Below, in pieces: positions 16,450 to 23,087 of a DNA stretch of 54,160 bases (positions are counted from its first letter, which is position 1; each line of letters begins with the position of its first letter). The stretch lies in NCBI GenBank assembly GCA_910592345.1, contig CAJVPI010000101.1, positions 1-54,160 of the forward strand, in the 5' to 3' direction. This stretch comes from Paraglomus brasilianum. Taxonomy: Eukaryota. The notes below the pieces were generated by a model, which was not told where the DNA came from, did no database searches, and saw nothing but the letters and a program-made list of their open reading frames with translations. A program made the position numbers and the translations under genes.

Positions 16450-17600
16450 ATTATTATCAATAAATATGAAAAGCCAGGCATCTTTTTTTACTTTATCTAA
16501 AATAAATTAACTTTGACAGTTAGAATAGATAAATTTATATGGTAGAAAGTAGCCAAGAATTTCCTCAATCTCTAAATTATTTCCTTAACTTCAATCAAGG
16601 TCATTTTTCAGTTTCTTTAATTTCAATTTGAGCAACTTGACCATCCTGTTGCTCTTTCAATAATTTGTTTTCCTCTTCTAATTGCTTAATTTTTCTTCTA
16701 AACTCTTTATCCTATCCAATAGTAATAGCTCTTGCTTCTACCTTTTGCTTGATTCTTCTAATTTCTCTTGAAATTTGGCTACTTCTTCTCTTTCAATTTC
16801 TAATTATTGTCGCTCATAAAAAGTGGTAAATTAGGAAGTCCTTTCTCTTTTTATTTTGCCTTTTCCCTGCAGTCACAAACAAATCCAAGTCAGTTTTGGT
16901 CTGCATTTTTCATGCTTAGTTAATTTATCATTCTCAAATTTTTCTTTACAATTACGTCTGCAATTAACTTATTGGTTGTCTCATGACGAGTTTTTATTAG
17001 ATTAACACATCTATTATTTTCATTATTACTATAATTAGAGCAAAAATCACAAGCCCTCCTATACTCTCACAGCAAATCTAAAAGTGTATATCTTAACTCT
17101 TTCAAAGCACTAAAAAATTATTTACTCTTAACTTCTATTTTAGCAACCATTTATTGCTTATTATTATGGTGTTTCACCTTTCTTCTTAGGTTTTGGACCT
17201 TAGTTGCTAATTCTTGGAACTTATGTTGTTTTTTATGTAAGTTAGGTAAAGGTTTTCCAAATAAGTGTTAGTAAATCTTCTAATTTTTTATAGTCTGCTT
17301 TCAACTTCTTGAATCCCTCATTATAATTAGTTTTTTTTCAATTCTTCTGCTTTTTCATCCCAATCTGCTGATTTTTTTTCATCCCATTTTTCAAAAATTT
17401 CATTAGCAGTCTCAATTTCCAACGATTTTTCTGCTATTACTATTACTATCTCTGCATGTAATTTATCCCTTAAGTTACCATTCAACCCTATTACTATATA
17501 ATATTCTTTAACAGCATTGTCAGATTCTTAACTTAAAGTTTTCTTCTAACAGCATATTATTTTCTTGAAGTTCCCCTAATATGTCTAATGATTTTTTGTC
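16450..17600 (-). other. AT-rich, CpG-poor degenerate coding remnant (Lys/Glu-rich, coiled-coil-like), probably transposon-derived
   Basis: Broken K/E-rich reading frames on minus strand, very few CG dinucleotides, adjacent to a transposase relic. Confidence 0.3.
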
Positions 17601-17679
17601 TAGTTTACTTATTTTTTTAAATACATATTATTATATTATTTTTATTGAGTATATAATTATTTTAATAGTATTTCTTTCC

Positions 17680-18560
17680 ATTAGGACCTTTGCCTATTAT
17701 TTCGTTCTCATCGAGAAGTAATTAATTTGTTCACATACTGCTTCATCTTGTATACCAAATAAATGCACTTTATGCTAATAAATTTTACTTACCGAATGGG
17801 GTATGTGATTTTGCGCTCAATTGTAATTGTAATGGGCAGTAGCATCAACGCTACAATAATCAGCTTTACCTCGTTATAAATTAATTTTCTCTATTGTTCT
17901 GCTAATTTTGTATCTTTGTTGTAATAGTTTCTTTCTAATTTAACCTTCACAAGATGTTCTTTGTAAATCTTTTGCTTCTTCTTCCTTATGAGCATTATAC
18001 TGTAAGCCGTTTCAAAAACGTTGGCACATGTCACATAAATCTGTTCTTGGACTCATGATTTGAATATAAGACGTCAATTGGTGCCATAACTTGCGGAATG
18101 CATCATACTTTAACAATTTCAACGTGCTATCGTTTTCTAGACCTGCAATAAAATCACAATAGACCGATTTGTAACTTGTTTTGGCTGGCAAAAATGTAAG
18201 CGATTGAGTAATTTCTACCGGGACTGGTAATCCATGAATTCCAGCATAATTCTCGAGAAAATTCTTCATGGTAGCAACAGTTATTTACATTACCATGAAT
18301 ACATGGTATTATGCCAGATGATGTGAATTTGACAATTCCTGACATCTTGAGATAAATTTTGGCAAAATGCATAATGCAATTCCAATAGTAAAAGGTTCTC
18401 TTCTTAGTACACATTTTCTTTTTAAGATGTAGACTGGCAGTTATCCCTCCACCATTCATTGTTTTCAGCTGGGCATTAAAAATATATCTTGTTCAGACCT
18501 AGAAAGAGCTTGAAAAGCTTCACACAACTCAGCAAACTTTTCTCATTTTGAGTAACCACA
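17680..18560 (-). mobile_element. Degenerate Sola-like (DUF7869-type) DNA transposase fragment
   Basis: NFLENYAGIHGLPVP...FRKLWHQL..YIQIMSPRTDLCDMC, followed by broken AQN.HIPH, KVHLFGIQDEA...QINY and ENEIIGKGPNG; frameshifts and stops. Confidence 0.6.
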
Positions 18561-19030
18561 AATGTGGCCTATCTCCAAGAAACATGTCATATTCAGTGCA
18601 GCCCTATATTAATATATTATATTCATTATTCTTCATATACAGATAATCTTATATATATAATTTTATCATTTAATAACAGTCTTGAACATGCGTTTTATTT
18701 ATGTTGCAAATTTTGTCTACATGTTGGTTTACTATTACCAATTATAACTATGGTACTGGCTTTAAGTAAAGAAACTTATTTGATACAAATATAACATTAA
18801 AACATAAAACATAAAACATACATGCCAAGTTACAAATTAAACACAGAACTCTTTATTGATTCATCACACTTCATCTTTACTCATGGAGCTGCTAATACAA
18901 AAGTTAAACTCAAATCACTAAAAGAAAATGCCAATGGTAGTCTACTGATATATGCAAAGTATAGTTAGATATTTAGGTAAAATCTGTCAGTGATAATGTC
19001 TTTACATACCTTTTATTGGTCCACGCCTAC

Positions 19031-19198
19031 TGAGCACAGAACACCCACCCGGACGAACCATAAACCTGTGACGAAGAGACAGGCGTAGGGGAAGTGCCTA
19101 GACACATGCCTCACAAGATAGACAAGGCGTATAACGGTTCCAAAGGGTTTAGTCAAAGGTCGGGCAATACGCAAAGAGGACATGTGGCCCTGTGTTCA
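19031..19198. repeat. Structured element copy 1 (candidate ncRNA domain)
   Basis: Terminal stem TGAGCACAG/CTGTGTTCA; core blocks 19042-19093 and 19134-19167 match copy 2. Confidence 0.85.
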
Positions 19199-19199
19199 T

Positions 19200-19383
19200 G
19201 CTGACAGCAAGAAGCACCCACCCGGACGAACCATAAACCTGCGACGAAGAGACAGGCGTAGGGGAAATGCCGAAGACACTGTATCTCCAAAGCTTCGAAG
19301 CTTGGGCAGTTCACGGTTCCAAAGGGTTTAGTCAGAGGTCGGGCAAACTTGCAAAGATAACATGTGCCTCTCCTGCTGTCAGC
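19200..19383. repeat. Structured element copy 2 (candidate ncRNA domain)
   Basis: Terminal stem GCTGACAGCA/TGCTGTCAGC; core blocks 19215-19266 (51/52 identical to copy 1) and 19313-19346 (33/34). Confidence 0.85.
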
Positions 19384-19521
19384 GGCGAGGTGGACATTAA
19401 AACAAAGAAAATCTGTTGATGGCGCGAAAATTTTTATTGCGCGCAATAATGTTTGTTGATCATGTGATAACAATATGTAACTGAGACGGCGCGAGCCTAA
19501 GCCCTCGTGTTTCTCATTACT

Positions 19522-21916
19522 ATGGAGATTGATAACAGGCTTAACTATCAAGTTCCTTACCAAGTGGAGAAAGTTGATAGATTTTTCAAAGATAATAAAC
19601 TGAAAGTTTGGGGTGACTATAAGACTTTTATTCAAACAAAGTTTGTTACTGGACACTACACCACCGCTCGTGCTATACATGGGCGATACTGTGGTTCATT
19701 GCTTGCCATTCAACAAAATGAAAGAGTAGGAGATGAAGTGAAAAAATATTGCGCCGACCTATACAAGGAAGCCAATGTACGTATGTAGACAGCCTGTGTT
19801 GAAAAAGCACGCGTCCTTATTTCCCACTTCTATGTAGACAAGTCGGAAAAGCGATTTCCTCTTATTAGTAGAGAATGTTATTGAATGCAAGCAAATAGAA
19901 CAAAACATTGAATCTATCCGGGTAAGCTTTGAAGGTAAACAAATCCTCTACATCGACAACATTTGAACACGTGAATTTGTATACTGTATAGGACAAAATT
20001 ACAAGAAAAGCAACGGAAGTCAGCGGTGAAATAGTAGATGATTCGTTGAAACAGTGGAGACCTTCTAAGAAACCCAAAACCGTTGATCAGTTGGAAGATT
20101 CTGATACTCAGGACAAGATAGCAGATATCACCAACACGTATGATGAGCTGTATAGGTTATACTATTCTTTACTTGCCAACAATCTTTGTCTCATGTATAT
20201 TCCCTCCGCACGTGAAAGGTCATTGCAAACAGATACAATTGAACTGCCACAGACTCCTCCCTCCAACCTGATTGATGCTGTTGACAGTGAGGAGGACGAA
20301 AGCATCCATTCAGAAGAATATCAAGCTGGAAGTGATGATGAAGATGGAAATACGCACATTGATGTTAATACCATATCATTTGATGATGCAGTAAATGAAA
20401 TACGTAACCCAAGCTGGACTCTCAAAGACGGCCGTCTACTCGTTGATGTGCTTGTGACCAATACCACTGAGTTGGTAAGACAGCTCATGCAAAAAAGCCA
20501 GAAAGAAAGAACACCTGCTCTCATGAGTGCTGCTCGGTATATGATGTCTTACTATTACTATATAAATGAAGAGCATGAATGGTTGCTTATTTTTGACACA
20601 GTTTAGGTCTTTCATCAATTGTCGATCTATCATCTGAATTTGAAGGTGGAATGTACAAGTGGTTTGGTCAAGACTGGGTAGATATCAAGGAAAAGGTGTA
20701 TGGAATGATAAATATGACACCATTATGTTTTGAAGGTGATGTAAAGAGTATTATTGACACAGTTGAAGATGTATGTGTATAATCTTGAGAGTCTGTGCAA
20801 GTCACTTTTCCTTTTAATAACTGTCATATTTGTAGATGTGCAACACATTCCGATATATTGATGCACGAACTTATCTGTATGAATTGCAGACCAGCAATCA
20901 TTCACCAATTGTTAAACAGATTGCAAATATTTACTTCATTGTGTATGTTGTCTAGTTTTGGTATTTGTCAGTATATCCTTGATAACTGCTCTGATGAACA
21001 TTTTGTTAGAATTTGTAAATTCATGAGAAACCCATTCATTTTTGTGAATGAATCTGGAAGACGTAAGGATCTCACTGAGATGGAATTTGTCATCAAAATG
21101 ATAGCACCTGTTTTTGATGAACTTTTTGCTGACATTTCAGATCTTGTAGAGCTTCGATGGTAATAGTAAGATATCACTGATCTTGATGTCACACATAATA
21201 TTTAATTTTAATTTTCATGTTTATAGGGGTGAGACAGTTACCCGTGCTGCCGTTCAACCAAGAAAGATTGATATGAGGATTGTCCACAGGACTCGACATA
21301 TTGAACTCAGTCACACAGAATGTGCAAGGCTTCTTACACCTGCAAAAGCTATTGGAGACCGCTCTAAGTGTTTACGGACACTAAAATGTGTGCTTGACAT
21401 GTATCTGGCAGAAGACATTTCAGATGATGCTGCAAATGATTCTACAATCATGGGGCTCCAATTTGCTGGTAAGATTTCAAGAGTTGGATTGTCAGCAAAT
21501 GTTAAAATGTTAATTATGTGGATTATCATCACATCAGGTCTTGAAGGACAAATCATAGGAATTGATTGTCTAGATGATGGTTTATACTTTGGTCTTGAGG
21601 GTCCCAAATTCAGATTTCCTGCACAACTGTCAAGTATAAAGGACCTCCGAAATACACTGGAAGCATTATTTTTCTTCAAAGTAAGGTCACATGTATGACT
21701 TGTGTGTGAGTTTTAGTTAATTGATGTATCCTTTTCTCTATCCAGGAAAATATTAATAGAAATGCCAAAGCACTACCTAATCCAACAGAGCAGGGCCACT
21801 TATATCAGAAAATTTTTCATGTCCACAGGGCACAAGCCAAGCATTTTAAAGTAGGTTTTACAAGGAAAACAAACTTCACTCCAAGTAAGCATAAGAAACA
21901 AATATTAATATTATAG
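19522..21916 (+). CDS. Multi-exon protein with acidic linker and C-terminal PD-(D/E)XK-like (Crinkler REase-type) nuclease domain; apparently intact
   Basis: GT-AG introns join frames into TEMEFVIKMIAP...ELRW-GE...RKIDMRIV...IELSHTECAR...DRSKCLRTLK...MGLQFAG...GLYFG...FRFP; motif order fits an REase fold with the Lys relocated. Confidence 0.65.
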
Positions 21917-23087
21917 GAAGAGTTTGTTAGTTACTATAGGATGATAGTGAAAAACATTGCTAATCTATAGAATTATATTATCATTTTGTTCCTCAACCTA
22001 AACCATTACTTGTCAATGGACTATATTAAAGAACAGAGTCCCCAATAAAATTGGGATTTCATGTAGAATTAGAATTGCAAAACAAAAAATCATACTGATG
22101 AATGTCACTCTACTGTATGTTTGTCTCCGTTGGTAATTGTTGAGATATACAAGTTTATTTGCGCGCCATTTTTTTCGCAACACACTGTATACTCTCCATC
22201 GGCCATTCTATACTATCCGTAATAATTATAAAATACATAACAATCAAATAAAAATTACAACACTTCAGATCTAATCGCTACTCTTAATGGCCTATTAATT
22301 TCGTTAATATATATTTTAGGGAATTAATAATATCGCTGTTTCATCATACAGATAATATATCACCGAAGGTCAGGTTCAACAGATGTTCCTAGTAAAACGT
22401 AGCGGACGAAGAAATGCCGCTCATATATAAAATATCTAATACCCATTATATATTATATCGTAGATATTATCTCGTTAATGAAGGTTAGTTTCAACCTCAG
22501 CATTAATATTTCTCTTTCCACACTGTAATGCTCCGATTGGATTTTCATCAAGAGTATCCGCATTTCGCTTCGTGTCTCTATCACACTCTATGGCTCTTAA
22601 CGTTTTGGCATAGGTTCCCTTCATTGACGAATAACAATTTAACTTGAACATAATAACGATAAATTCACAATAACCAATAACGATGGATTCACAATAACTT
22701 TTTGTTGTATATTACGAGTATTAGCCTTCTAACGAATATATTAAACTCTCGGTAATATACATTGTCTTTATTATTACGAACGCCTTTCCTGTGTTAAATA
22801 TAATCGCTTCCCTTATTAGTCGCCAAAATGTTACAACAAAGCATACTCTGTTACTGGTCTTATTAATCGCGAAGAACTTACATGCAAAGTGTCAGTTCAG
22901 AGAATAATATAATAACTGAATACTTTTCATGCCCTGCTTATTAATCGCCATGATTTTATAACATGTCTTATTAGAGAACAAATAATACATTATGATTTAA
23001 CAATACATCATTACACAAACTGTTTCACATGACGCCGCTGAAAATTGTGTCGCTAGTAAATTCTTCTCAACCTTACAACACCAAAGG

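What the first reader, a model, noticed from the sequence alone, without database searches (positions are those of the whole stretch)
19019..19395. Tandem pair of covarying, possibly pseudoknotted ~175-nt structured elements inside one closing stem
Seen: two copies (19031-19198, 19200-19383) share blocks of 52 nt (51 identical) and 34 nt (33 identical), while the segments between are rewritten yet still pair. Terminal stems differ in sequence (TGAGCACAG/CTGTGTTCA vs GCTGACAGCA/TGCTGTCAGC), and the central variable segment is a different hairpin in each copy (ATGCCT..AGGCGT vs CCAAAGCTTCGAAGCTTGG). The constant blocks can pair with each other: CCC-ACC-GAC with GTC-GGT-GGG, TAAACC with GGTTTA, and GAACC with GGTTC in crossed (pseudoknot) order. 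GTCCAC-GCC (19019-19027) and GGC..GTGGAC (19384-19395) can close both domains. Several G-U pairs favour the minus strand; A-rich loops favour plus. Inference: invariant core plus freely covarying peripheral stems is the signature of a selected RNA or ssDNA fold such as a ribozyme, ligand sensor or RNP scaffold, not a neutral duplication. I cannot match it to tRNA, 5S, snRNA, hammerhead, HDV, twister, pistol or TPP consensus.
Basis: partly seen in the sequence, partly recalled or inferred. Interest (0 to 1): 0.9.

Follow-up and report, generated by a model that had tools for sequence, protein, structure and literature searches.

The report
Uncatalogued two-domain RNA, mycorrhizal fungus
A root-symbiotic fungus transcribes and splices a roughly 380-base RNA made of two similar units predicted to fold alike; it matches no catalogued RNA family and most likely acts as a stand-alone RNA that holds two copies of the same partner, though its job is untested.

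Summary
The tandem pair is real (51 of 52 and 33 of 34 identical, rewritten but pairing terminal stems). The window is from Paraglomus brasilianum. New here: RNA-library contigs cover the element in 7 of 7 RNA-type runs laid (chosen because they hold it), and one error-free contig skips a 68-nt GU..AG intron on the MINUS strand that starts 9 nt behind the closing stem. Natural variants also favour a minus-strand RNA: 7 of 19 calls keep a pair only there, 1 only on plus, 3 break pairs. A diverged tandem relative exists. No Rfam family, ribozyme core, TTAGGG template, snoRNA boxes or conserved reading frame was found. The pseudoknot is possible but unproven: all 20 of its pairs are invariant, and an alternative nested fold is 4.8-8 kcal/mol more stable before pseudoknot energy. 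No intact gene follows. Best reading (0.4): a stand-alone, spliced non-coding RNA that presents one conserved core twice, as a bivalent scaffold. Main rival (0.25): a two-state tandem sensor controlling that intron. Covariation is not statistically established; too few homologues were reachable.

The parts
19019..19395 (-). Whole structured element: two domains inside one closing stem; first exon of a spliced non-coding transcript
19200..19383 (-). Domain B (first in the transcript): long closing helix extended by G-U pairs, conserved core, variable hairpin
   Evidence: allele L008; relative X14 record 8
19031..19198 (-). Domain A (second in the transcript): same core, rewritten closing helix and variable hairpin
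19384..19395 (-). 5' arm of the closing stem P0; no RNA contig reaches it, so its presence in the transcript is inferred
   Evidence: contig ends
19019..19027 (-). 3' arm of the closing stem P0; lies in the stretch 19004-19049 matched by a diverged contig
   Evidence: X20 record 4
19215..19266 (-). Long conserved core block, domain B
19042..19093 (-). Long conserved core block, domain A
19313..19346 (-). Short conserved core block, domain B
19134..19167 (-). Short conserved core block, domain A
18942..19009 (-). 68-nt spliceosomal intron, GUAUGU donor, CUAAC branch-like site 23 nt from the AG
   Evidence: joint 18941-19010 in X12
19012..19017 (-). AAUAAA between the closing stem and the splice donor (possible poly(A) signal; inference)
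18852..18941 (-). Second exon, AT-rich, no long ORF; RNA support down to 18912 only; AAUAAA at 18852-18857
19400..19520 (.). Gap between the RNA and the divergent plus-strand gene; probable shared promoter (inference)
   Evidence: sequence; plus gene spliced in X11

Best explanation
A spliced minus-strand transcript of Paraglomus whose first exon is predicted to fold into two homologous domains inside one closing stem, and which most likely works as a stand-alone non-coding RNA that presents the same conserved core twice to bind two copies of one partner, probably a protein. Shown: tandem anatomy, presence in RNA libraries, a minus-strand intron 9 nt behind the stem, a diverged tandem relative, no intact downstream gene. 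Inferred: RNA polymerase II transcription from 19400-19520; peripheral helices as interchangeable struts; the core as binding surface; the adjoining donor and AAUAAA as the 3'-end-forming signals, as for fungal telomerase RNAs.
For: Spliced contig, 238 nt, 0 other letters, ends CT..AC on plus. All 9 RNA-type contigs on the element lie within 18912-19372; none covers 19373-19655 although DNA runs on there. 7 of 19 variant calls keep a pair only on minus, 1 only on plus, 2 form one compensated pair. Alignment covariation term -0.64 on minus, +3.01 on plus. Terminal stems rewritten yet paired. Spliced transcript holds only short upstream ORFs in differing frames; the relative has 1, 1 and 9 nt indels; ORFs over the element have no homologue. 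Downstream minus-strand coding pieces are broken and about 450 nt away. A 5'-3' closing stem is typical of stable stand-alone RNAs (general knowledge).
Against: No partner is identified; binding is pure inference. Splicing rests on one contig with 30 nt on the short side, laid at 80% likeness; contigs are unstranded and 3 others read into the intron. Runs were chosen for holding the stretch, so coverage and abundance are circular. 3 of 19 variant calls break a pair on both strands, most variant contigs have depth under 5, and the close allele L008 has 5 changes in 184 nt, no fewer than its flanking gene. Copy 1 alone folds no better than shuffles. No pair shows a two-sided change in the aligned core. 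No Sm site.
Confidence: 0.4

Rival explanations
1. A tandem two-state sensor (riboswitch-like) in a transcript leader: each core switches between a nested fold and a long-range, pseudoknotted fold, and the state sets use of the adjoining 5' splice site.
For: Two mutually exclusive pairings both fit every core sequence fully (28 and 20 pairs), which would explain low variation. The long-range helix beats 13 of 5000 shuffles when the crossing strand is looped out (segments chosen after the fact; 1189 of 5000 without looping out). The 5' end can pair with intron bases +10 to +16 within 1.0-2.4 kcal/mol of the closing stem, and similar intron bases stand in a diverged contig. Spliced and intron-containing contigs both occur. 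Tandem aptamers before one platform are known in bacteria (PMC9481103, passages).
Against: No intact gene follows the intron, so nothing obvious is regulated. The alternative end pairing has probability 0.01 in the ensemble. Intron-containing contigs may be DNA or pre-RNA. No ligand clue from neighbours.
Confidence: 0.25
2. A relic of a mobile element or a decaying duplication whose core identity is kept by gene conversion; transcription is read-through from the divergent promoter.
For: Lies in an AT-rich stretch of broken ORFs. Two of the five L008 changes match copy 1. No homologue outside near relatives.
Against: Rewritten but paired stems, strand-biased G-U variants, a diverged tandem relative and a kept donor site. 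Contigs with flanks carry this locus's own flanks; no sign of dispersed copies in the window.
Confidence: 0.15
3. Two ribozymes of an unknown class in tandem.
For: Size, conserved core with variable periphery and possible pseudoknot resemble catalytic RNAs (general knowledge); variant HDV ribozymes escaped earlier searches in fungi (PMC5640933 section 7).
Against: No Rfam hit; no HDV-like topology or hammerhead, twister or pistol core motif on either strand (recalled motifs). Every junction from 18947 to 19368 is bridged by some RNA-library contig, so uncut RNA or DNA is present.
Confidence: 0.1
4. A highly diverged member of a known class: telomerase RNA or a long rRNA-guiding or chaperone snoRNA.
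For: Terminal intron with GUAUGU donor recalls fungal telomerase RNA processing (PMC4299874, passages). Each domain holds CUAAACCCU, which would template TTTAGGG. Three 7-8-nt words are antisense to one 60-nt region of large-subunit rRNA (12 and 13 of 300 shuffles on a 361-nt target), where long yeast snoRNAs act (PMC13015370, passages).
Against: Rhizophagus telomeres are TTAGGG (10.1101/2022.10.19.511543, passages) and no such template lies here; two templates, both paired in the models; no Sm site. The rRNA cluster was picked after the fact, is not significant on a second target (208 and 244 of 300), and one word is broken in the relative. No H box hinge, terminal ACA or C box; pocket candidates had their halves in different domains or used variable parts.
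Confidence: 0.1

Closest known systems
Fungal telomerase RNAs ended by spliceosomal cleavage (S. pombe TER1 and others; PMC4299874, passages read)
   Same: Structured non-coding exon followed at once by a spliceosomal intron; long branch point to AG distance (23 nt here).
   Different: Two homologous domains, about 380 nt, no TTAGGG template, no Sm site, branch site not a perfect U2 match, full splicing seen.
Tandem-aptamer riboswitches such as glycine (PMC9481103, passages) and fungal TPP riboswitches that control splicing (recalled)
   Same: Two similar domains in tandem next to a possible control point; alternative pairings predicted.
   Different: No Rfam match, no TPP CUGAGA; lies in an exon, not the intron; no coding gene downstream; domains about twice as large and enclosed by one stem.
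Candidate structured fungal RNA motifs of Li and Breaker 2017 (PMC5640933; abstract and sections 7, 14, 15 read)
   Same: Uncatalogued structured fungal RNA found by comparison.
   Different: Not the HDV variant, atypical snoRNA or group I core described in the sections read; the other motifs were seen by name only.
Long yeast H/ACA snoRNAs with scaffolding arms (snR37; PMC13015370, passages)
   Same: Several hundred bases, RNA helices that recruit proteins; the scaffold role proposed here.
   Different: No H or ACA box in the right place, no valid pocket, duplicated domains.

Membership tests
Any Rfam 15 family | Covariance-model hit on either strand | tested here: not met
   0 hits at gathering score in the window; at E up to 10 in 18700-19700 only one AT-rich chance hit outside the element
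Telomerase RNA | Template for the host repeat (TTAGGG in Rhizophagus) | tested here: not met
   the Paraglomus repeat itself could not be read (no genome)
Telomerase RNA | Terminal spliceosomal intron behind the structured exon | tested here: met
Telomerase RNA | Sm site before the 3' end | tested here: not met
   (recalled consensus)
Telomerase RNA | Binds TERT and supports repeat synthesis | not testable with these tools
   experiment needed
HDV-like ribozyme | Nested double pseudoknot P1-P2-P3-P1.1-P4 with catalytic C | tested here: not met
   own descriptor, 0 hits on both strands; descriptor not validated on a positive control
Hammerhead, twister, pistol, hairpin ribozymes | Conserved catalytic core words | tested here: not met
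   only one hairpin-loop half word matched
TPP riboswitch | J3/2 CUGAGA plus P4-P5 with GCG | tested here: not met
   GCGUAGG on plus only, no CUGAGA; L008 changes that word; plus is not the spliced strand
Riboswitch (any class) | Ligand-dependent fold change that regulates a downstream gene | not testable with these tools
   alternative folds predicted; no intact downstream gene
Box H/ACA snoRNA | Hairpin-H box-hairpin-ACA with bipartite pocket | tested here: not met
   domains are 1 nt apart; pocket scan on partial LSU rRNA only; SSU not tested
Box C/D snoRNA | Terminal C box and D box | tested here: not met
   no C box on either strand
Group I intron core | P3-P7 core with R and S elements on one strand | tested here: not met
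   R-like and S-like words lie on opposite strands; no Rfam hit
SINE or other dispersed repeat | Many genomic copies, target-site duplication | tested here: inconclusive
   one tandem pair in the window; genome not held
Protein-coding repeat | Frame kept between copies and relatives | tested here: not met

The most novel reading that the evidence does not exclude
A eukaryotic tandem riboswitch of a new class, not TPP, in which two large two-state domains control splicing of the intron right behind them in an arbuscular mycorrhizal fungus; or an abundant new ribonucleoprotein RNA class of Glomeromycota.
Probability: 0.2. Interest if true: 0.9.

Novelty: categorically new. Interest (0 to 1): 0.66.

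Why it matters
Structured non-coding RNAs of early-diverging fungi are barely charted, and large conserved folds outside the housekeeping classes are rare in eukaryotes. A transcribed, spliced, two-domain RNA in an obligate plant symbiont is a concrete candidate for a new RNP scaffold, or for a second natural eukaryotic riboswitch class beyond TPP (recalled as the only validated one). It is short enough for direct probing, cleavage and ligand tests. 'Categorically new' here means it failed every family test that could be run; its function is not shown.

Tried and rejected
Homologue searches: viral contigs, four element patterns: only 7 chance 16-mer hits, none scoring with the model; prokaryote genomes 0; phages and plasmids only 20-31 nt chance pieces; metagenomes 1 hit, a near-identical allele. 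ORFs over the element as protein bait: nothing; representatives gave the same locus and one unrelated repeat protein. Model search of the window: no third copy. Apparent sense matches to rRNA fell in the phage part of chimeric contig L009. DNA run X9 laid nothing, no evidence either way. Earlier-findings look-ups by sequence and place found nothing. The broken minus-strand ORF pieces could not be classified (Pfam nothing; atlas unavailable). One search used a mis-registered structure string and is disregarded; searches used wrong coordinates.

Full report
Observation. The two copies and their blocks are as described: 51 of 52 and 33 of 34 identical bases, with unrelated but pairing terminal stems (9 and 11 consecutive pairs; 59 and 3 of 5000 shuffles as good; cross-pairing between copies 4) and an all Watson-Crick closing helix. 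The element is a 54% GC island in 28-39% GC surroundings. Folding energy alone is weak evidence: z -1.8 and -1.4 for the whole, about -2.8 for copy 2 and none for copy 1. Rfam finds nothing on either strand. A model built from three sequences finds no third copy in the window.

Context. The window's adenosine kinase is identical to a Paraglomus brasilianum protein on a contig of the same length, so the host is an arbuscular mycorrhizal fungus. No whole genome was held. To the right lies a divergent plus-strand gene of a Mucoromycota hypothetical family, spliced in one RNA run. To the left lie broken, AT-rich ORF pieces on the minus strand without Pfam match.

Transcription and strand. Twenty of 24 listed runs hold part of 18900-19500. 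I laid 8 of them: 6 on record as RNA, 1 guessed RNA, 1 DNA. All 7 RNA-type runs, from 7 studies, gave contigs on the element, 9 in all, within 18912-19372; the DNA run gave none. The runs were chosen for holding the stretch, so this shows presence, not level. One contig (X12, 238 nt, no other letters, 30 nt on the short side) joins 18941 to 19010, skipping 68 nt that read GUAUGU...CUAAC...AG on the minus strand. The donor is 9 nt behind the closing stem. Three contigs read into the intron and may be pre-RNA, retained intron or DNA. No contig covers 19373-19655, while the DNA allele L008 runs on there: a weak hint at a 5' end near 19400, and the 5' arm of the closing stem is therefore not shown to be transcribed.

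Variation. L008 differs at 5 of 184 positions of domain B, no fewer than its flanking gene. X14 record 8 is a diverged relative that spans the junction of the two domains (21 other letters, 11 gap positions; only 11 substitutions are listed). X20 record 4 matches only 19004-19049, that is the 3' arms and the donor. Of 19 listed variant calls, 7 keep or make a pair only on the minus strand (6 distinct positions), 1 only on plus, 2 together turn a mismatch into an A-U pair, 3 break a pair on both strands (one partner not covered) and 6 are neutral. Most come from contigs of depth under 5 and may include errors. RNAalifold's covariation term is -0.64 for minus and +3.01 for plus on three rows. 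With the intron this makes the minus strand the likely RNA.

Fold. On the minus strand each domain has a long closing helix extended by G-U pairs, a small 5' subdomain, a 4-bp and a 7-bp helix, then the variable hairpin and a conserved hairpin (28 core pairs, 3 one-sided changes, no two-sided change). It shares strands with the nested fold, so the two exclude each other. Without pseudoknot energy the nested fold is 8.0 (B) and 4.8 (A) kcal/mol better; with the crossing strand looped out the long-range helix beats all but 13 of 5000 shuffles (chosen after the fact). So the pseudoknot is possible, perhaps as a second state, but unproven. At the ends, the 5' segment can pair with intron bases +10 to +16 within 1.0-2.4 kcal/mol of the closing-stem state, depending on the stretch folded, though at probability 0.01 in the ensemble.

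Rivals tested. Coding: short ORFs differ in frame between the copies, the relative has frameshifting indels, and no protein homologue exists. Telomerase RNA: the terminal intron recalls TER1 processing (PMC4299874, passages), but there is no TTAGGG template or Sm site, Rhizophagus uses TTAGGG (10.1101/2022.10.19.511543, passages), and the TTTAGGG-type word is duplicated and paired. snoRNA: three short words antisense to one LSU rRNA region reach 12-13 of 300 shuffles on a small target chosen after the fact and not on a second one; one word is lost in the relative; boxes and pocket geometry fail; SSU rRNA was not tested. Known ribozymes and TPP: no model hit or core motif (motifs recalled). Mobile element: not excluded without the genome.

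Mechanism. I commit to a stand-alone, spliced non-coding RNA whose two domains each present the same core to one kind of partner, with the peripheral helices as struts and the adjoining donor or AAUAAA setting the 3' end (0.4). Transcription, splicing and anatomy are shown; fold is predicted; partner binding and end formation are inferred. The two-state splicing sensor (0.25) explains the double pairing but lacks a gene to control.

Literature. Searches listed no paper on such an RNA in Glomeromycota; several were broad and filled with general reviews, subscription journals are not covered, and no supplements were read, so absence from print is not established. Read: PMC5640933 (abstract, sections 7, 14, 15); passages only of PMC4299874, PMC13015370, PMC9481103, PMC9453076, PMC11952901, PMC12449055, 10.1101/2022.10.19.511543 and 10.64898/2026.01.14.699541.

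Verdict. A real, transcribed, uncatalogued two-domain RNA; function open; homologue depth too small for a covariation statistic. Interest 0.66.

Noticed in passing
window 19420-19460 and about 22150-22180: E2F-like word (recalled consensus) and a perfect 16-nt palindrome in the gap between the RNA and the plus gene; a similar GC-word cluster lies behind that gene, possibly promoter sites or element ends.
   Followed up: no
window 16600-18500, minus: Broken, frameshifted AT-rich ORF pieces with a Cys motif; diverged RNA contigs in X12 suggest a multi-copy family; unclassified.
   Followed up: partly
window 19522-21900, plus: Intron-containing gene of a Mucoromycota hypothetical family without Pfam match; intron 19777-19837 is spliced in X11.
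   Followed up: partly
window 18942-19009, minus: The donor is predicted to pair over 10 bases with a segment behind the branch site; a near-identical segment lies in domain A. The acceptor is a tandem NAGNAG, the second AG is used.
   Followed up: partly
L009 1-130: Viral-collection contig that begins with eukaryotic LSU rRNA and continues as phage-like DNA; probably chimeric.
   Followed up: no
window 1-680: Six 108-nt tandem repeats encoding Sel1 repeats.
   Followed up: no
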